A stretch of 7,424 nt of DNA, taken from a virus (lineage: Duplodnaviria; Heunggongvirae; Uroviricota; Caudoviricetes). Made by a program: the position numbers and the translations under genes. Below are positions 600-5,210 of the stretch, piece after piece (the first letter of the stretch is position 1; every line of letters begins with the position of its first letter). The notes under the pieces are model-generated. The model saw nothing but the letters and a program-made list of their open reading frames with translations, did not search any database and was not told where the DNA came from. The stretch lies in the IMG/VR virus record IMGVR_UViG_3300028985_000011. One strand, 5' to 3'.

Positions 600-642
600 A
601 AAAAGGGCGGCAGAGCAGTCACGGAGTAAAACTGATACCGCC
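600..642 (-). terminator. Rho-independent terminator at the 3' end of the DicF-like RNA
   Basis: On minus strand GGCGG (plus 638-642) ... CCGCC (plus 606-610) followed by C then TTTTT (plus 604-600); inner CAGT/ACTG pairing possible within the loop. Confidence 0.5.
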
Positions 643-657
643 AAACGTCACCAGAAA
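600..657 (-). ncRNA. dicF: DicF-like small regulatory RNA with 3' intrinsic terminator
   Basis: Minus-strand sequence TTTCTGGTGACGTTTGGCGGTATCAGTTTTACTCCGTGACTGCTCTGCCGCCCTTTTT matches my recollection of E. coli DicF; ends in GC stem (plus 638-642 / 606-610) plus U5 tract (plus 600-604); located between the upstream ORFs and dicB-like gene as in Qin. Not verified by covariance model. Confidence 0.55.
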
Positions 658-962: not shown

Positions 963-1301
963 TTAATGATTAATTGATATTTTGTTGTTTGATTCAACTT
1001 TCCCATCGGATGTGTGATGCTTTAAATCACAGGAATTAATACTGCTTGCTGTAAAATGATTTTCAAGGGGAGCTATTCGAATCCCTTTCTTTTTCATTAA
1101 CAAGCCAAATCCTTTATTAATGATGTCCATTAATTCCAGAAAGTATTTTTCATGTAAATCCTGGTTATCAGAGAGCTGCTTCTCTTCGTACAGCCCGATA
1201 AAGGCTCGGCGTACGTTACCGGATATATTGTCGATGGTTTCTTTTTCTACGGTACTCAGGTCAAGAGTCGCCAGTTGAGAGCGAACCACATTCGATGCCA
1301 T
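963..1301 (-). CDS. Hypothetical protein, AT-rich 3' half; true start may lie upstream inside the N-run
   Basis: Minus ORF open from the N-run to stop at 963-965 (ATG at 1299-1301 has AGGAA directly abutting, poor spacing; frame stays open upstream to 1319); GC content drops markedly toward 963; no family recognised. Confidence 0.5.
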   Translation of the reverse strand: MASNVVRSQLATLDLSTVEKETIDNISGNVRRAFIGLYEEKQLSDNQDLHEKYFLELMDIINKGFGLLMKKKGIRIAPLENHFTASSINSCDLKHHTSDGKVESNNKISINH

Positions 1302-1319
1302 TTCCTGGAATGGTACTGG

Positions 1320-1373
1320 NNNNNNNNNNNNNNNNNNNNNNNNNNNNNNNNNNNNNNNNNNNNNNNNNNNNNN
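1320..1373. other. Run of 54 undetermined bases (assembly gap or masked sequence)
   Basis: n characters from 1320 to 1373; flanking minus-strand ORFs are in different frames, so gene structure across it is unresolved. Confidence 1.
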
Positions 1374-1503
1374 AGCGACGCGCGCCAGCTTCGGTTTTAA
1401 ACGTTTTGCTTTTGGTATACGTCATGGCGGTGAATGTGCCGTCCTGGTTGGGGAACACACCACATACCAGAGATTCGCTGTTGCCAAGATCGATAGTATC
1501 CAT
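1374..1503 (-). CDS. Hypothetical small protein, first gene of the leftward operon (3' end hidden in N-run)
   Basis: ATG at 1501-1503 (minus) with GAGG Shine-Dalgarno 5 nt upstream; encodes MDTIDLGNSESLVCGVFPNQDGTFTAMTYTKSKTFKTEAGARR...; the track's TTG start at 1608 has no RBS and overlaps the predicted promoter; occupies the position of ydfA-like genes downstream of dicA in Qin. Confidence 0.45.
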
Positions 1504-1579
1504 GCTGACCTCATTACCCCTTAACGCCGGGTAGCGGAACTGTTTGCTGAGAACACCGTGCGGTGTCTTGATGGGTGGT

Positions 1580-1608
1580 AATTTAGTTTTCTCATGAATG
1601 TTGGTCAA
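1580..1608 (-). promoter_or_regulatory. Candidate leftward sigma70 promoter (dicB-operon / PL-like) with embedded operator-like motif
   Basis: On minus strand -35 TTGACC (plus 1603-1608), 17-nt spacer, -10 TAAATT (plus 1580-1585); spacer contains TGAGAAAACT (plus 1585-1594), the same core motif found at 1619-1631 and 2152-2164. Confidence 0.45.
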
Positions 1609-1616
1609 GCATTTTT

Positions 1617-1632
1617 AATGAGAAAACTCAAT
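1617..1632. promoter_or_regulatory. Operator-like near-palindrome AATGAGAAAACTCAAT (left copy)
   Basis: 13-nt identity TGAGAAAACTCAA with the site at 2152-2164; inverted arms TGAG/CTCA around AAAA; 11 bp upstream of the candidate -35. Confidence 0.45.
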
Positions 1633-1640
1633 ATTTAATG

Positions 1641-1672
1641 CAAAATAAAGCCAATACATTGAAATGTAAGGC
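1641..1672 (-). terminator. Possible weak intrinsic terminator downstream of the repressor gene
   Basis: On minus strand AAAGCC-TTACATTTCAATGTATT-GGCTTT hairpin (inner palindrome TACATTGAAATGTA at 1655-1668) followed by TTTATTTT; stem is AT-rich so strength is doubtful. Confidence 0.3.
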
Positions 1673-1692
1673 TTTAAAATTTGTGAAGGGGG

Positions 1693-2100
1693 TTACTGAT
1701 GTTTGTTACGTTTGCGAGCTTCTAGTAGCTCGGTGAATAGGCGATTAAAATTCTCAACGCGGGCACGGAGTTCGCTGATTTGTGCTTGCTGCTCTGATTT
1801 TGGAAGTGCGCGATACAATCGCAACATCTCCAACTCATCTTCCGATAAGTCTAAGGCGCTGTTGAGTGCTACTGGTGGATCTGGTGTTTTATCCTCGTCA
1901 CCAAACAGTATCCAAGTTGGTGAACATTGCAATACCTCAGCCAGGCGATGCAAATTTTGCCCGCGCGGGGCTGTATGGTCGCTTTCCCATAGTGAAATTG
2001 ATGAGCCAGATACGCCAGCGGCTTTGCTTAAATCGTTTTGACTTAAACCAACCTGTTTGCGTCTTTCTCTAATTCGTTGACCTAAAGTTTTCTCGTTCAT
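1693..2100 (-). CDS. dicA: DicA-family HTH (XRE-type) prophage repressor, 135 aa
   Basis: N-terminal HTH (QRIRERRKQVGLSQNDLSKAAGVSGSSISLWE) and the motif LQCSPTWILFGDEDK that I recognise from E. coli DicA (also 135 aa); ATG at 2098-2100 with no obvious Shine-Dalgarno; divergent from a Cro-like gene. Confidence 0.9.
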   Translation of the reverse strand: MNEKTLGQRIRERRKQVGLSQNDLSKAAGVSGSSISLWESDHTAPRGQNLHRLAEVLQCSPTWILFGDEDKTPDPPVALNSALDLSEDELEMLRLYRALPKSEQQAQISELRARVENFNRLFTELLEARKRNKHQ

Positions 2101-2121
2101 ATTTAGATATCTTAATAACCC

Positions 2122-2151
2122 TTGACTTGAGATTCCTTGAATGGTTACTAT
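2122..2151 (+). promoter_or_regulatory. Candidate rightward sigma70 promoter (PR-like) for the dicC-like operon
   Basis: -35 TTGACT (2122-2127), 18-nt spacer, -10 TACTAT (2146-2151); about 27 nt upstream of the dicC-like ATG; CTTGA direct repeats at 2121, 2126, 2136. Confidence 0.5.
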
Positions 2152-2165
2152 TGAGAAAACTCAAC
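2150..2165. promoter_or_regulatory. Operator-like palindrome ATTGAGAAAACTCAAC (right copy)
   Basis: Perfect inverted repeat TTGAG-AAAA-CTCAA (2151-2164) overlapping the -10 and predicted start site of the rightward promoter; 13-nt identity with 1619-1631. Confidence 0.5.
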
Positions 2166-2177
2166 TTTGGAGGGGTG

Positions 2178-2405
2178 ATGTTTAAATCAGACGTAATTAA
2201 TTTTTATGGGACGAAAGCCAAAGTAGCGAAAGCTGCTGGTGTTGATCCATCTGCTGTTTCTCAATGGGGGGAACTGGTTCCTGAAGGTCGCGCGATGCGC
2301 CTGCAAGAGGCATCCGGCGGGGAACTTCAGTACGACCCCAAAGTTTATGACGAATATCGTAAGGCAAAGCGGGCGGGGCGGTTGAACAATGAAAATCACC
2401 CCTGA
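2178..2405 (+). CDS. dicC: DicC/Cro-like small DNA-binding regulator, 76 aa
   Basis: ATG at 2178 preceded by GGAGGGG (2169-2175); product MFKSDVINFYGTKAKVAKAAGVDPSAVSQW...; same length as E. coli DicC and divergent from the dicA-like gene; the upstream extension to 2127 in the track lacks an RBS and overlaps the promoter. Confidence 0.8.
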   Translation: MFKSDVINFYGTKAKVAKAAGVDPSAVSQWGELVPEGRAMRLQEASGGELQYDPKVYDEYRKAKRAGRLNNENHP

Positions 2406-2940
2406 ACAGGTTTGTGAGGCTCTGGATGCCTGGGTATGTCGACCAGGAATGACACAGGAGCAAGCGACGATATTAATCACGGAAGCATTCTGGGCTCTGA
2501 AAGAACGCCCGAACATCGATGTTCAACGCGTCACGTTTAATGATGGCGAGGTTGATCAACGGGCGCTGGGCGTTAACCGGGTGAAGATATTCGAACGCTG
2601 GAAAGCTATCGACACCAGGGATAAGCGGAAAAAATTCACGGCGCTGATTCCGGCAATTATGGAGGCTATCCGAATTAGTGATTTCAGGTTGTATCGTGAG
2701 ATCAGTGATGGAAAAAGCATTACGTACATGATCGCCGGATTAAACAAAGAATATGGCGATGTGGTGGAGTCCGGGCTGCTTTTTGCGGATCCAGCTGTTG
2801 TGGAACGTGAGACTGACGAGCTTATAGAAAAAGCTATTGCTTTCAAGCATGCGTATCGTCAGCAATATCAATATTACTTTGCAGATAAACAAATGTCTGC
2901 CAGGGGTTTGTATGAGTATCGATGCACTACGATGGGCTAA
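2389..2940 (+). CDS. YdaT-like protein (CII-position regulator/toxin family), 183 aa
   Basis: ORF MKITPEQVCEALDAW...; third gene of the rightward operon as in Rac-type racR-ydaS-ydaT arrangements; start overlaps dicC-like stop by 17 nt; family assignment from memory only. Confidence 0.7.
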   Translation: MKITPEQVCEALDAWVCRPGMTQEQATILITEAFWALKERPNIDVQRVTFNDGEVDQRALGVNRVKIFERWKAIDTRDKRKKFTALIPAIMEAIRISDFRLYREISDGKSITYMIAGLNKEYGDVVESGLLFADPAVVERETDELIEKAIAFKHAYRQQYQYYFADKQMSARGLYEYRCTTMG

Positions 2941-3952
2941 AAAGGTGAAAACCGGCAGTTCATCCAGTAAGTCTGTATTGACCTGGCTTGCTGATATGTG
3001 CGGTGCCGATTTGTGTGCATACCCGTCTGTATCTGCACTGGCAGAAGTAACGGAACTAAACAAAAAGACTGTGCAGGACAGCTTACGACACCTGATGGAG
3101 ATTGGGTTAATTGTTGATACCGGTGAGAGAAAAGGCAGAACAAAGCAAATTGTGGTGTACCGACTTATCGGTGTAGAAGAAAGTGTTGCCGAGCCTGAAT
3201 ACACCCAAAAACGGGAGTCTTTAAAGGTGGGTAAAATTGGTGCTGTTAATAAAAACAGTACCGAAAATGGTTATGTTTCAGCACAAAACAGACCCAAAAA
3301 CGGAACTCTTAGCTGCATGGAAAATAACCAAAGACACCCAAATTTTCCATCAAAGACACCCAAAAACGGATCACGGAACCCAAAGGAACCCAAAGATCTA
3401 AACCCCACACATAACGCACGCGAGAGTGCTCCGACCAGTGAGCAGGAAGTTTTGTCGTTACAGGCAGCACCCCTTGTATTCCTGGATGGCCTGAGCGAAC
3501 CCATCGGAAAATTTCCGATGACCGATAGCTGGTATCCGTCACGGGATTTTCGACGACGGGCTGCGTTGTGGGGGATGGCTTTGCCGGAGACAGAATTTAC
3601 ACCTGCTGAACTTGCCGCCTTCCGGGACTACTGGGCAGCGGAGGGGAAAGTGTTTACTCAGATTCAGTGGGAGCAGAAATTCGCCCGTCACGTAAATCAC
3701 GTCAGGGCGCAGGTTAAACCAGTCAGCAAGGGGGTAAACCATGCAGCAGCACCAGGTGGCACCGCATCACGGGCAGTTCAGGAAATTCGGGCAGCACGTG
3801 AGCAGTGGGAACGTGAAAACGGATTTATCAGCGACGGAAACGGTCTGGAAGCTGTGGGAACTCATGGGGGAGGTTTATTCGAACCGCTGGACCCAGAAGA
3901 ACGGGGCCGCACCTTCGAAGCTCTGGATTGCACAGATTGGCGCGATGACTGA
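2912..3952 (+). CDS. Replication initiation protein (lambda-O-position): N-terminal HTH DNA-binding domain, low-complexity linker, C-terminal DnaT-like domain
   Basis: ATG at 2912 with AGGGG 5 nt upstream (track start at 2837 is TTG without RBS); N-terminal LTWLADMCGADLCAYPSVSALAEVTELNKKTVQDSLRHLMEIGLI resembles replication-initiator HTH; C-terminal WYPSRDFRRRAALWGMALPE...FRDYWAAEG resembles DnaT-type domain; iteron-like repeats inside. Confidence 0.8.
   Translation: MSIDALRWAKKVKTGSSSSKSVLTWLADMCGADLCAYPSVSALAEVTELNKKTVQDSLRHLMEIGLIVDTGERKGRTKQIVVYRLIGVEESVAEPEYTQKRESLKVGKIGAVNKNSTENGYVSAQNRPKNGTLSCMENNQRHPNFPSKTPKNGSRNPKEPKDLNPTHNARESAPTSEQEVLSLQAAPLVFLDGLSEPIGKFPMTDSWYPSRDFRRRAALWGMALPETEFTPAELAAFRDYWAAEGKVFTQIQWEQKFARHVNHVRAQVKPVSKGVNHAAAPGGTASRAVQEIRAAREQWERENGFISDGNGLEAVGTHGGGLFEPLDPEERGRTFEALDCTDWRDD
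3290..3396. repeat. Iteron-like repeat array inside the initiator gene (candidate replication origin)
   Basis: Core CCCAAA five times (3293, 3337, 3359, 3379, 3389); 12-mer CCCAAAAACGGA at 3293-3304 and 3359-3370; 14-mer CAAAGACACCCAAA at 3329-3342 and 3351-3364 (22 bp apart); tandem GAACCCAAAG at 3376-3385 and 3386-3395; AT-rich tract 3240-3290 just upstream. Confidence 0.5.
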
Positions 3953-4406
3953 GCAGCAAATCCGACAGGTCTGCCGCCAGTGCATGGACCGCTGCCGGGC
4001 GGGTGAAACATGGCCTCCGGACCTGGCTGAGTTTGTGGCGCTGATTTCAGAAAGCGGGGCCAATCCATTTGGCCTGACGGTGGATGCTGTGATGGAGGAG
4101 TACCGCCGCTGGCGTGATGAGTCCTGGCGATATGACGGAAGCGACAAATATCCGTGGCCTCAGCCTGTGCTGTACCACATCTGCCTCGAAATGCGTACCA
4201 GAGGGATTGAGCGCCAGATGACGCAGGGTGAGTTAAAACGACTTGCGGAACGGCAACTGACGAAATGGGCAAAGCATGTTGGTAACGGGATGAGTGTTCC
4301 GCCAGTGCGACGACAACTGGAAGGGGCGAAACACCCGCAAGGGCCAACGCCAATTGAACGGCTGAAACAGGAATACGAACGCCGGAAGGCAGCTGGTTTT
4401 ATTTGA
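3741..4406 (+). CDS. Lambda-P-like replication protein (helicase loader), 221 aa
   Basis: Strong RBS AAGGGGG (3728-3734) 6 nt before ATG 3741; internal regions MTEQQIRQV, WPPDLAEFVALI, YPWPQPVLYHICLEM align by eye with lambda P; overlaps the 3' end of the initiator gene by 212 nt in another frame (alternative starts GTG 3813 or ATG 3864). Confidence 0.7.
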   Translation: MQQHQVAPHHGQFRKFGQHVSSGNVKTDLSATETVWKLWELMGEVYSNRWTQKNGAAPSKLWIAQIGAMTEQQIRQVCRQCMDRCRAGETWPPDLAEFVALISESGANPFGLTVDAVMEEYRRWRDESWRYDGSDKYPWPQPVLYHICLEMRTRGIERQMTQGELKRLAERQLTKWAKHVGNGMSVPPVRRQLEGAKHPQGPTPIERLKQEYERRKAAGFI

Positions 4407-4439
4407 ATCTGAGAAACGATTTTGTCGGAGGAAATTTTA

Positions 4440-5210
4440 ATGGAAACCGTATTTGACGCACTGAAAGCAATGGGAAAAGCCACATCGGTAGAACTGGCCG
4501 CGCGACTTGATATCAGTCGTGAAGAGGTTCTCAACGAGCTGTGGGAACTCAAAAGAAATGGCGTCGTTGATAAAACTGGTCACACCTGGTTTCTGGCTGG
4601 CGAAGGTGAATCCCGGGTAACCGAAGAGCGGCCAGTAAAATCTGAAGCACAGGATATGCTGACCGGGGAGGTCGAACAAAAAGTTACCGCAGACATGATG
4701 ATTGAGTTTATCGGTCAGGATGGTGCTAAAACGTGTGAGGAACTGGCGGGTAAGTTCGGCGTCAGTACTCGCAAGGTTGCCTCCACGCTGGCGGTGGTAA
4801 CCGCAATGGGGCGGCTGGCACGCGTTAATCAGAACGGTAAATTTCGTTACTGCATGCCGGGCGATAATTTACCAGCAGAGCCGAAAGCCGCGCTGGTAAC
4901 GGAAAGTGATGGTAAGGCCTTTCCTCAGCCAGCAGGTGCTGCGTTACCAGTCCGGGAAGCCGCAACACAGGAAGAAATTAAAACAGAAACTGTGGCGGAC
5001 ATTGTGCAGCCGTTGCCATCGTTTACCGAAACGCAAGCAGATGAGCTGATTTTTCCGTCCCTTCGCAGGGCAAACCTGGCGCTGCGCAGGGCGAAAAGTG
5101 ATGTTCAGAAGTGGGAGCGAGTCTGCGCCGCGCTGCGGGAGCTGAACAAGCACCGGGATATTGTTCGACAGATTACTGATTCTTCCCGCCGTGTTGTATC
5201 GGAAAAGTGA
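4440..5210 (+). CDS. Hypothetical protein with two tandem winged-helix-like segments (phage nin-region family, possibly DUF1627-like)
   Basis: ATG 4440 with GGAGG (4427-4431) 8 nt upstream; the track start at 4422 is TTG; segments [30 protein letters not shown] and [33 protein letters not shown] look like wH/HTH units. Confidence 0.8.

What the first reader, a model, noticed from the sequence alone, without database searches (positions are those of the whole stretch)
3290..3396. Iteron-like repeat array embedded in the replication initiator gene
Five CCCAAA cores with longer repeated units (12-mer twice, 14-mer twice at 22-bp spacing, 10-mer tandem) lie in the linker-coding part of the initiator gene, next to an AT-rich tract. 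This mirrors the lambda arrangement in which the origin lies inside the O gene, and is a candidate origin of replication that also encodes a low-complexity linker (NRPKNGT...KTPKNGSRNPKEPKD).
Basis: partly seen in the sequence, partly recalled or inferred. Interest (0 to 1): 0.5.

Follow-up and report, generated by a model that had tools for sequence, protein, structure and literature searches.

The report
Lambda-style replication origin inside initiator gene
The repeats are real DNA-level binding-site repeats (iterons) sitting inside a prophage replication-initiator gene, the same layout as the phage lambda origin. The same array recurs in a large family of related phage initiators in which I found no published or annotated origin, so this is a solid but conceptually familiar find.

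Summary
Six ACCCAAA cores, all on the + strand, cluster at 3203-3394 (0 of 200 shuffles reach six). They lie in the linker-coding part of a 346-aa initiator (2912-3952) that has a winged-helix N-domain and a DnaT-like C-domain. A lambda-P-like gene follows it.

- Canonical iterons sit at 3203, 3292 and 3358, with a near-copy at 3260 and a decayed copy at 3229.
- A variant site sits at 3336.
- The two last cores (tandem GGAACCCAAA, 3375-3394) belong to a different conserved post-iteron element.

Comparative evidence strongly favours DNA-level function:
- 54 of 61 homologous loci, from Enterobacterales to Acinetobacter and Desulfovibrionaceae, carry at least 4 clustered repeats at the same gene position.
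- The repeats occupy two or three reading frames in 44 of those 54 loci.
- Synonymous sites are frozen (Pro codon CCC in 79 of 79 cases).
- The repeat sequence differs between lineages.
- A 39-kb relative carries six of its seven motif copies inside this gene.

Most relatives have their least stable DNA just right of the array. This window does not.

No experiment exists. A deposited 8.5-kb circular plasmid carrying only this module is circumstantial support. Verdict: a new member of the lambda-type "origin within the initiator gene" kind, in a defective prophage.

The parts
2122..2151 (+). pR-like sigma-70 promoter candidate upstream of the cro-like gene. Rightward transcription from here would run through the initiator gene and the repeat array.
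   Evidence: Consensus scan gives TTGACT-18-TACTAT, 9 of 12 matches. This is a consensus match only. The gene order repressor(-)/cro/ydaT/initiator/P comes.
2912..3952 (+). Replication initiator gene (346 aa): N-terminal winged-helix DNA-binding domain, iteron-encoded linker, C-terminal DnaT-like domain.
   Evidence: Pfam DnaT PF17948 scores 61.5 bits on residues 201-267. HTH_36 scores 20.8 bits, below its 25-bit cut-off. PHROG 1032 'replication initiation protein' scores 1.7e-90. PDB DnaT chains score 1.6e-19. Similar phage records annotate it as 'phage replication protein'.
2912..3181 (+). Coding region of the winged-helix domain (residues 1-90), the presumed iteron reader.
3199..3220 (+). 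Iteron 1, canonical (core ACCCAAAAACGG at 3203-3214).
   Evidence: It is the best hit of a matrix trained on relatives only: 31.1 bits, against a shuffle maximum of 20. It is orthologous to iteron 1 of Kluyvera and phage EPP-1.
3229..3240 (+). Decayed iteron 2 (GGGTAAAATTGG).
   Evidence: It aligns with ACCCAAAAACGG of phage EPP-1 and ACCAAAATCGG of Kluyvera. It does not score with the matrix.
3255..3276 (+). Iteron 3, near-canonical (ACCGAAAATGG at 3260-3270).
   Evidence: The matrix gives 14.9 bits, the fourth best hit in the window. It aligns with CCGAAAACGG of relatives.
3288..3309 (+). Iteron 4, canonical (ACCCAAAAACGG at 3292-3303), read as PKNG.
   Evidence: The matrix gives 29.1 bits. 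The 12-mer is exact.
3333..3349 (+). Variant penultimate site (ACACCCAAATTTTCCAT), read as HPNF in the third frame.
   Evidence: It aligns with the penultimate site of relatives: CCCAATTTTGG in Edwardsiella, Serratia and Plesiomonas, and ACCCAAATTTGGGT in Acinetobacter phage AP22. It is not scored as canonical.
3354..3375 (+). Iteron 6, canonical and last (ACCCAAAAACGG at 3358-3369), read as PKNG.
   Evidence: The matrix gives 22.7 bits. The 12-mer is exact.
3375..3399 (+). Post-iteron element: tandem GGAACCCAAA x2 followed by GATCT. It is flanked by two GATC sites (3369-3372 and 3395-3398). It is a candidate unwinding or second binding element and ends at the module junction.
   Evidence: Tandem Repeats Finder reports period 10, 2.1 copies, 100% match. 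It is homologous to CGGAATCTACCAAGGAACCATAAAGATCT and to CAGAACCAGTCAnnnGAACCAGTCA, which follow the last iteron in relatives. Similarity to Rac YdaU starts at residue 161, about nt 3392. Loss of one 10-mer splits the gene in E. coli 2009C_3612.
3221..3260 (.). Least stable 40-bp duplex stretch of the initiator gene. It lies between iterons 1 and 3.
   Evidence: The nearest-neighbour profile gives -47.0 kcal/mol, against a regional mean of -55.8. That puts it among the 3.8% least stable stretches of the window.
3491..3721 (+). Coding region of the DnaT-like domain (residues 194-270). It belongs to a C-terminal module shared with Rac YdaU.
   Evidence: PDB DnaT chains 6aep, 9zbt and 4ou6 score 1e-18 to 1e-19. 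The region is 87% identical to Rac-SA53 YdaU from residue 161 onward.
3945..4406 (+). Lambda-P-like gene (153 aa), a putative helicase loader. Its start overlaps the initiator stop (ATGA).
   Evidence: Pfam Phage_lambda_P scores 5.2e-16. PHROG 109 'P-like helicase loader' scores 4.3e-54. It is 90% identical to Rac YdaV and 25% identical to lambda P residues 94-202.

Best explanation
The stretch 3199-3399 is the replication origin, or a recently functional origin, of a lambdoid prophage. It is embedded in the linker-coding part of the prophage's own initiator gene.

Proposed mechanism:
1. Rightward early transcription produces the initiator.
2. Its N-terminal winged-helix domain binds the direct repeats. 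The consensus is ~ACACCCAAAAACGGGA, a partly dyad-symmetric CCC-A-tract-GGG site much like a shortened lambda iteron. Binding builds a multi-protein complex on the array.
3. This destabilises a nearby easily melted or strand-asymmetric tract. Candidates are the post-iteron GGAACCCAAA repeats and the A/C-only strand at 3351-3410, or the AT-rich island at 3221-3260.
4. The C-terminal DnaT-like domain, with the lambda-P-like protein encoded next door, brings in the host DnaB helicase.

Because the sites lie in coding DNA, the protein linker is a by-product of them. It reads PKNG, TQKR or PNF depending on the frame.

What is shown: the repeats, their position, their DNA-level conservation, their association with the N-domain module, and the domain content of both proteins. 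What is inferred: binding, unwinding, helicase recruitment and actual origin activity.
For: 1. Clustering beyond chance. There are 6 ACCCAAA cores, all on the + strand, within 192 bp; 0 of 200 shuffles reach this number. A matrix built only from relatives puts its four best window hits at 3199, 3288, 3354 and 3255, scoring 31, 29, 23 and 15 bits. The shuffle maximum is 20 and the mean maximum is 5.
2. DNA-level rather than peptide-level constraint. In the window the cores occupy all three frames. Of the 54 homologous loci with arrays, 25 use three frames and 19 use two, and 119 of 239 spacings are not multiples of 3. In 79 P[KE]NG peptides from 35 loci the Pro codon is CCC in 79 of 79 cases, against 23% elsewhere. 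Lys is AAA in 62 of 62, Glu is GAA in 17 of 17, and Asn is AAC in 76 of 79 against 46% elsewhere.
3. Conserved position. 54 of 61 loci have at least 4 copies at nt 240-560 of the gene, directly after the winged-helix domain.
4. Lineage-specific repeat sequences. Enterobacterales and Vibrio have CCCAAAAACGG, Acinetobacter has GTCCCAACAATGG, two loci have GTACCAAAAGTGGTAC, and Desulfovibrionaceae have CACCCCCGAACG.
5. Module linkage. Rac YdaU has the same C-domain but a different N-domain and has no such array. Homology begins right after the array.
6. Specificity within a whole genome. In the 39-kb phage phiV10, 6 of 7 CCVAAAACGG matches lie inside the initiator gene; 0.18 are expected.
7. Lambda parallels. 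Lambda's annotated iterons ATCCCTCAAAACGAGGGA sit at the equivalent place in the O gene. Lambda O and this N-domain both match PHROG 678 and 345. A P-like gene follows. In 39 of 54 relatives the least stable 40-mer of the whole gene starts within -20 to +80 nt of the array's right end. The lambda layout itself is described in PMC7466680.
8. A deposited circular 8,461-bp E. coli plasmid consists of repressor, cro, ydaT, this initiator with the same array, the P-like gene and cargo. It is 96.4% identical to window 1540-4504 and has no other listed replication gene.
Against: - There is no experimental evidence for binding or for replication. I found no paper describing this origin.
- In this window only 3 of 6 orthologous sites are intact, and one is badly decayed.
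- The right arms of the window's iterons (GGGAGT, GGAACT, GGATCA) are poorly symmetric, by inspection of the three site sequences.
- The lambda-like AT-rich tract to the right of the array is not evident here. The stretch at 3372-3411 is at the 46th stability percentile, so the unwinding site is unresolved.
- PPompW-type prophages are reported to be defective (PMC8112680), so the origin may be a relic.
- The variation in repeat sequence between lineages could partly reflect shared ancestry rather than matched specificity.
- The plasmid record could be an assembly artefact.
- The initiator does not reach Pfam's lambda O family, and the profile comparison with lambda O gave 4% probability.
Confidence: 0.72

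Rival explanations
1. The repeats are initiator-binding sites, but their role is regulatory: autoregulation, a roadblock to early transcription, copy-number control by pairing, or exclusion of related phages. The true origin would lie elsewhere.
For: All the evidence that the repeats are DNA-level sites tied to the N-domain fits this equally well. The window lacks a clear AT-rich tract to the right of the array. Iterons in plasmids are known to serve control as well as initiation (general knowledge).
Against: No second cluster of sites exists elsewhere in the window or in the whole phiV10 genome. Most relatives do have the least stable DNA of the gene abutting the array. The layout copies the experimentally defined lambda origin (PMC7466680). 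The 8.5-kb circular record carries no other listed replication gene.
Confidence: 0.12
2. The array is a dead relic: a former origin decaying in a defective prophage and no longer able to fire.
For: Only three sites remain canonical, and one orthologous site has four mismatches. PPompW prophages are reported to be defective and not packaged (PMC8112680). One E. coli strain has lost a 10-mer and split the gene.
Against: The initiator and P-like reading frames are intact. The array is at least 99% identical in 792 of the 907 complete E. coli genomes that carry it. Per the discussion in PMC7466680, two iterons plus the AT-rich region are the minimal fragment for unwinding in lambda, and three iterons suffice for normal phage growth. 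A circular 8.5-kb record carries the same array.
Confidence: 0.1
3. The repeats are selected at the protein level as a low-complexity PKNG-type flexible linker. The DNA repetition is a by-product of duplications.
For: Many relatives repeat the unit in frame at 18- or 24-bp spacing and encode P[KE]NG several times.
Against: The same DNA word is read in all three frames in the window (TQKR, PKNG, HPNF) and in 44 of 54 related loci. Synonymous sites are invariant while the amino acid changes between K and E. Half of the spacings are not multiples of 3.
Confidence: 0.03
4. The repeats are sites for some other factor (host DnaA, IHF, SeqA or another phage protein), or merely a recombination junction between gene modules.
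For: The array ends exactly at the mosaic boundary with the Rac-type C-module. Two GATC sites flank the post-iteron element.
Against: There is no DnaA-box match in or near the array. The repeat sequence differs between lineages of the adjacent N-domain across bacterial orders, whereas a conserved host factor would predict a constant site. The array is absent when the N-domain is of another type.
Confidence: 0.03

Closest known systems
Phage lambda origin (ori-lambda) inside gene O, with O and P proteins
   Same: - Binding-site repeats lie in the middle of the initiator gene, between its DNA-binding N-domain and its C-domain. In lambda they sit at nt 348-432 of O; here and in relatives they sit at about nt 270-480.
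- The repeats all face one way and fall in different reading frames.
- Each repeat has a CCC...A-tract...GGG build: lambda ATCCCTCAAAACGAGGGA against ACCCAAAAACGGGA here.
- A P-like gene follows directly.
- The module sits downstream of repressor, cro and a cII-like gene.
- Most relatives have an easily melted tract to the right of the repeats.
   Different: - The initiator does not reach Pfam's lambda O family, and the profile comparison gave 4% probability. The only link is shared weak matches to PHROG 678 and 345.
- The C-domain is DnaT-like rather than the lambda O C-domain.
- The P-like protein is 153 aa and aligns only with the C-terminal half of lambda P.
- The sites are about 3 bp shorter and less symmetric.
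- Spacing is wider and irregular in this copy (26, 31, 32, 44 and 22 bp between core starts).
- No AT-rich tract lies to the right in this copy.
Rac prophage YdaU/YdaV replication module (origin oriJ, recalled from memory and not checked here)
   Same: The C-terminal DnaT-like half of the initiator is 87% identical and the P-like protein is 90% identical. The flanking gene order dicA/dicC/ydaT is the same.
   Different: Rac YdaU has an unrelated N-terminal domain and no CCCAAAAACGG array in its linker. The origin-specifying module therefore differs.
Initiators of phiV10 (epsilon15-like), Edwardsiella phage EPP-1, Vibrio phage H20 and Acinetobacter phage AP22
   Same: They have a homologous N-domain (29-44% identity over the whole protein). 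They carry arrays of 3-7 (5-7 in three of the four) CC[CG]AAAACGG-type repeats at the same gene position, followed by GAAyC repeats.
   Different: Their arrays are more regular, with 18-, 24- or 33-bp spacing and up to five perfect 24-bp units in H20. Their C-domains and helicase partners differ; AP22, for example, has a DnaB-like helicase gene next door. None of these records annotates an origin.
Iteron plasmids (RepA/RepE/pi type)
   Different: Plasmid iterons lie outside the rep gene and the Rep proteins have two winged-helix domains (general knowledge). Here there is a single winged-helix domain and the sites are inside the gene.

Membership tests
Lambda-type origin embedded in the initiator gene | Several same-orientation repeats inside the initiator coding sequence, between the DNA-binding and C-terminal domains | tested here: met
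   Four matrix-scoring sites plus two orthologous degenerate sites lie at 3199-3375, coding for residues 97-155. All are on the + strand.
Lambda-type origin embedded in the initiator gene | The repeats are constrained as DNA, independently of the reading frame | tested here: met
   Three frames are used in the window. Two or three frames are used in 44 of 54 relatives. Synonymous sites are frozen.
Lambda-type origin embedded in the initiator gene | Each repeat is a dyad-symmetric site of about 18 bp with a central A-tract | tested here: inconclusive
   Some relatives have clear arms: GTACCAAAAGTGGTAC, GTTCCAATAATGGAAC and AGTCCCAAAAACGGGACT. The window's right arms are weak, and my automatic arm count was confounded by registration problems.
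Lambda-type origin embedded in the initiator gene | An AT-rich, easily unwound tract directly adjoining the repeats on the right | tested here: not met
   The feature is met in 39 of 54 relatives. In this window the stretch to the right (3372-3411) is at the 46th stability percentile, and the least stable DNA lies inside the array at 3221-3260.
Lambda-type origin embedded in the initiator gene | A P-type helicase-loader gene immediately downstream | tested here: met
   PF06992 scores 59.3 bits against a 26-bit cut-off. PHROG 109 scores 4.3e-54. The start overlaps the initiator stop.
Lambda-type origin embedded in the initiator gene | The initiator binds the repeats and the fragment supports initiator-dependent replication | not testable with these tools
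   Support is circumstantial only: the circular 8,461-bp record NZ_CP148379.1 carries this module and no other listed replication gene.
Lambda O protein family (Pfam Phage_rep_O) | A significant match of the N-domain to the family profile | tested here: not met
   Pfam gives no such hit at E <= 0.01. hhalign against lambda O gives 4% probability. The only link is indirect: both proteins match PHROG 678 and 345.
HTH_36 (PF13730) winged-helix family | A score above Pfam's gathering cut-off | tested here: inconclusive
   The window protein scores 20.8 bits against a 25-bit cut-off. Most homologues carry a precomputed PF13730 hit. The fold is a winged helix.
DnaT C-terminal domain (PF17948) | A score above Pfam's gathering cut-off and similarity to solved DnaT structures | tested here: met
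   The score is 61.5 bits against a 25-bit cut-off. Chains 6aep, 9zbt and 4ou6 score 1e-18 to 1e-19. The protein is not full-length DnaT: the NCBIfam equivalog scores 94 bits against a 201-bit cut-off.
Iteron-plasmid replicons (Rep with two winged-helix domains, iterons outside rep) | Iterons lie in non-coding DNA next to rep, and the Rep protein has tandem winged-helix domains | tested here: not met
   The sites lie inside the gene. The N-terminal 98 residues fold as one winged helix, and the only other domain detected is DnaT-like.

The most novel reading that the evidence does not exclude
This window may exemplify a very large family of phage and prophage origins that, as far as my searches show, has not been described. 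The N-domain profile finds 430 representatives at E <= 1e-30 and 12,272 at E <= 1e-10. In this family a winged-helix initiator reads CCC-A-tract-GGG repeats written into its own linker-coding sequence. The site is nearly unchanged from Acinetobacter to Vibrio to E. coli, and it resembles the lambda iteron closely enough to suggest common ancestry of the lambda O/iteron pair with this family. A second conserved element, 2-3 GAAyC repeats of 10-12 bp after the last iteron, may be the true unwinding or single-strand-binding element, possibly read by the DnaT-like domain.
Probability: 0.4. Interest if true: 0.5.

Novelty: new member of a known kind. Interest (0 to 1): 0.4.

Why it matters
- **Annotation.** This module is present in 907 of 5,426 complete E. 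coli genomes, including many Shiga-toxin-producing strains. It is annotated only as a "DnaT-like ssDNA-binding domain-containing protein", with no origin marked.
- **Prediction tool.** Recognising the array gives a sequence signature (consensus, position, frame-independence) that can locate origins in many phage and prophage genomes across Gammaproteobacteria and beyond.
- **Biology of related elements.** It helps predict which prophages could cross-activate or exclude each other through shared iterons.
- **Dual-coding example.** DNA-binding-site constraints here dictate a protein linker sequence.
- **Limit.** Conceptually it extends the lambda paradigm rather than changing it.

Tried and rejected
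- **Peptide-repeat explanation.** Rejected on reading frames and synonymous codons.
- **Direct homology to lambda O.** hhalign of a 5-sequence N-domain alignment against lambda O gave only 4% probability, and Pfam gave no Phage_rep_O hit. Only an indirect PHROG link remains.
- **Automatic dyad-symmetry count on per-locus consensus repeats.** The registration was ambiguous, so the result is uninformative.
- **DnaA boxes.** None in or near the array.
- **Rfam.** The only hit is DicF, far upstream. Nothing matches in the array.
- **Viral-contig scan.** The 80 loci kept (L007-L086) were all 99-100% identical to the window's protein over the matched N-domain, so they added no diversity.
- **First protein search with the N-domain.** It returned mostly short or truncated entries.
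- **Literature searches.** Searches for the motif, for iterons with phiV10, epsilon15, DnaT, primosomal protein or HTH_36, and for ydaU/ydaV origins found nothing describing this origin. The library lacks most subscription journals, so absence is not proof.
- **Lambda-style AT-rich tract right of the array.** Looked for and not found in this window.
Full report
**Context**

The window is the early region of a lambdoid prophage. It is 98.8% identical over the initiator gene to PPompW prophages of Shiga-toxin-producing E. coli. Those prophages are lambda-like and reported to be defective (PMC8112680).

The gene order is as follows:
- a dicA/cI-like repressor at 1693-2100 on the minus strand;
- a P22-Cro-like gene at 2175-2405;
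- a YdaT/cII-like gene at 2389-2940;
- a 346-aa initiator at 2912-3952;
- a 153-aa lambda-P-like gene at 3945-4406, whose start overlaps the initiator's stop.

A promoter-like site at 2122-2151 faces rightward.

**Checking the observation**

ACCCAAA occurs six times in the window. All six are on the + strand and lie between 3203 and 3394. The expectation is 1.3, and none of 200 shuffles reaches six.

The six cores fall in reading frames 1, 0, 2, 0, 2 and 0 of the initiator gene. The same DNA word is therefore read as TQKR, PKNG or HPNF.

**Relatives**

Translated searches found distant homologues of the N-domain in Edwardsiella phage EPP-1, E. coli phage phiV10, Vibrio phage H20 and Acinetobacter phage AP22. 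A scan of one genome per species found 60 further loci in Enterobacterales, Vibrio, Pseudoalteromonas, Marinomonas, Acinetobacter and Desulfovibrionaceae.

An unbiased search for the most repeated 12-mer in each gene gave these results:
- 54 of 61 genes have at least four copies clustered at nt 240-560, directly after the winged-helix domain.
- Spacings peak at 17, 18, 22, 24 and 33 bp.
- 119 of 239 spacings are not multiples of three.
- The copies use three frames in 25 loci and two frames in 19 loci.

Where the repeat is read as P[KE]NG (79 cases in 35 loci), the codon choice is nearly invariant:

| Residue | Codon in repeat | Same codon elsewhere in these genes |
|---|---|---|
| Pro | CCC in 79 of 79 | 23% |
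| Lys | AAA in 62 of 62 | 69% |
| Glu | GAA in 17 of 17 | 68% |
| Asn | AAC in 76 of 79 | 46% |

The amino acid changes between K and E while the silent positions never change. This rules out a peptide-level repeat and shows selection on the DNA.

The repeat sequence differs between lineages:
- CCCAAAAACGG in Enterobacterales and Vibrio;
- GTCCCAACAATGG in most Acinetobacter;
- GTACCAAAAGTGGTAC in two loci;
- ATACCCCCAAAA in Marinomonas and Pseudoalteromonas;
- CACCCCCGAACG in Desulfovibrionaceae.

In the complete 39-kb phiV10 genome, six of seven CCVAAAACGG matches lie inside the initiator gene, against 0.18 expected. That carefully annotated record marks no origin.

**Module structure**

Rac-SA53 YdaU shares only the C-terminal half of the initiator. 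Identity is 87% from residue 161 (about nt 3392), immediately after the array. Its N-domain is different and it has no such repeats. Its P-like partner YdaV is 90% identical to the window's P-like protein.

The array therefore travels with the N-terminal DNA-binding module. The C-domain travels with the P-like protein. This is the division expected if the N-domain reads the repeats and the C-domain contacts the helicase loader.

**Anatomy in this window**

Two analyses resolve six orthologous sites. One is a DNA alignment with Kluyvera, EPP-1 and an E. coli variant. The other is a matrix trained on 102 repeats from 23 relatives, with the window excluded.

| Site (core coordinates) | State | Matrix score (bits) |
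|---|---|---|
| 3203-3214 | intact | 31.1 |
| 3229-3240 | decayed (GGGTAAAATTGG) | none |
| 3260-3270 | near-intact | 14.9 |
| 3292-3303 | intact | 29.1 |
| 3336-3348 | variant | none |
| 3358-3369 | intact | 22.7 |

The shuffle maximum for the matrix is 20 bits.

The variant site at 3336 occupies the position of the relatives' conserved penultimate site. That site is CCCAATTTTGG in several relatives and ACCCAAATTTGGGT in AP22.

The two remaining CCCAAA cores form the tandem GGAACCCAAA at 3375-3394. They are not iterons. They correspond to a separate element that follows the last iteron throughout the family: two or three GAAyC-containing repeats of 10-12 bp. Examples are CAGAACCAGTCAttaGAACCAGTCA and CGGAATCTACCAAGGAACCATAAAGATCT. 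In this clade the element is flanked by two GATC sites.

The top strand of 3351-3410 has the lowest T+G content of the whole window, at 18%.

**Comparison with lambda**

Lambda's four annotated iterons (ATCCCTCAAAACGAGGGA and variants) lie at nt 348-432 of gene O and are followed by the AT-rich tract (PMC7466680).

The position, the single orientation, the frame-independence and the CCC/A-tract/GGG build are all shared with the window's array.

Lambda O's N-domain and this N-domain both match PHROG 678 and 345. Pfam's lambda O family is not reached, and a shallow profile comparison gave 4% probability. I therefore treat this as "works like lambda" and do not file the protein in the lambda O family.

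In 39 of 54 relatives the least stable 40-mer of the entire gene starts within -20 to +80 nt of the array's right end. About 12% would be expected by chance. This is the lambda layout.

This window is an exception. Its least stable stretches are 3221-3260 and 3317-3356, both inside the array. The DNA to the right of the array is unremarkable. The unwinding site in this copy is therefore unresolved.

**Distribution and circumstantial support for function**

The array is present in 907 of 5,426 complete E. coli genomes, at 99% identity or more in 792 of them. It is annotated only as part of a DnaT-like protein gene.

One strain has lost one copy of the 10-mer, which frameshifts and splits the gene.

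A deposited circular 8,461-bp plasmid (NZ_CP148379.1) consists of repressor, cro, ydaT, this initiator with the same array (two base differences), the P-like gene and a few cargo genes. It has no other listed replication gene. It resembles a natural lambda-dv-like plasmid. I could not verify the assembly.

The N-domain family is large. A profile search found 430 representatives at E <= 1e-30 and 12,272 at E <= 1e-10. Their linkers show the three frame translations of the repeat: PKNG, QKR and PKT[ED].

**Verdict**

The best explanation is a lambda-type origin of replication written into the linker-coding part of the initiator gene (confidence about 0.7). In this defective prophage the copy is partly decayed.

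The main rivals are a purely regulatory role for the same binding sites, and a dead relic. A peptide-level repeat is excluded.

I found no paper or annotation describing this origin family. The library searched is incomplete, and the idea of an origin inside the initiator gene is textbook. I therefore rate it a new member of a known kind, of moderate interest.

Noticed in passing
window 605-656 (-): A full-length DicF antisense RNA gene (Rfam RF00039, 76.7 bits against a gathering score of 48). It lies upstream of the immunity region, as in Qin/dic-type prophages.
   Followed up: no
window 1320-1373: A run of 54 N (masked or unknown bases) interrupts the two overlapping ORF calls in this stretch, 1261-1608(-) and 1295-1534(+).
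   Followed up: no
window 3375-3394; L148 (E. coli 2009C_3612) 933-942: The tandem 10-mer GGAACCCAAA varies in copy number. One E. coli strain has a single copy. This frameshifts the initiator into a separate helix-turn-helix protein and a DnaT-like pseudogene. Many database entries for this N-domain are short, at 103-170 aa.
   Followed up: partly
L150 = NZ_CP148379.1 (whole record, 8,461 bp circular): A small circular E. coli plasmid record is made of this prophage's immunity and replication module (96.4% identical to window 1540-4504) plus hokD, rem, an ATP-binding/HNH pair and a DUF5677 gene. It resembles a natural lambda-dv-like replicon. The assembly was not verified.
   Followed up: partly
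window 3369-3399 and the 75 nt after the last iteron in L003-L005, L087-L143: A second family-wide element follows the last iteron: two or three GAAyC-containing repeats of 10-12 bp, read as QNQS.../RN.P.... In Enterobacterales a conserved AAAGATCT follows, and often a second GATC precedes the element. 15 of 30 CCCAAAAACGG-type loci have a GATC within 75 nt of the start of the last iteron. Its role is unknown; unwinding element, Dam/SeqA control or protein-level constraint are all possible.
   Followed up: partly
window 3392 / L002 (Rac-SA53) 2497-3567: There is a mosaic joint inside the initiator gene. Rac YdaU carries a different N-domain on the same DnaT-like C-domain, and homology starts at ...GATCTAAA...AACCCCACACAT. 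This is domain shuffling at the origin boundary.
   Followed up: partly
window 3237-3401 (+), alternative frame: A 54-aa ORF overlaps the array in another frame and reads the repeats as ...DPKTE...HPKTD.... Some family members use that same frame within their real proteins. Here it is most likely a by-product of the repeats and not a gene.
   Followed up: no
window 2912-2940: The YdaT/cII-like gene (2389-2940) overlaps the initiator's start by 29 nt. The initiator's stop overlaps the P-like start (ATGA at 3945-3948, by direct reading of the sequence). This suggests translational coupling along the early operon.
   Followed up: no
L092-L095, L003: 40-75 nt after the last iteron: In the Edwardsiella/Serratia clade the post-iteron GATCT is followed by a G+C-rich inverted repeat, CCCCCTAGCCCCCAAGGGGGAGGG. 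It is absent from the window, and its function is unknown.
   Followed up: no
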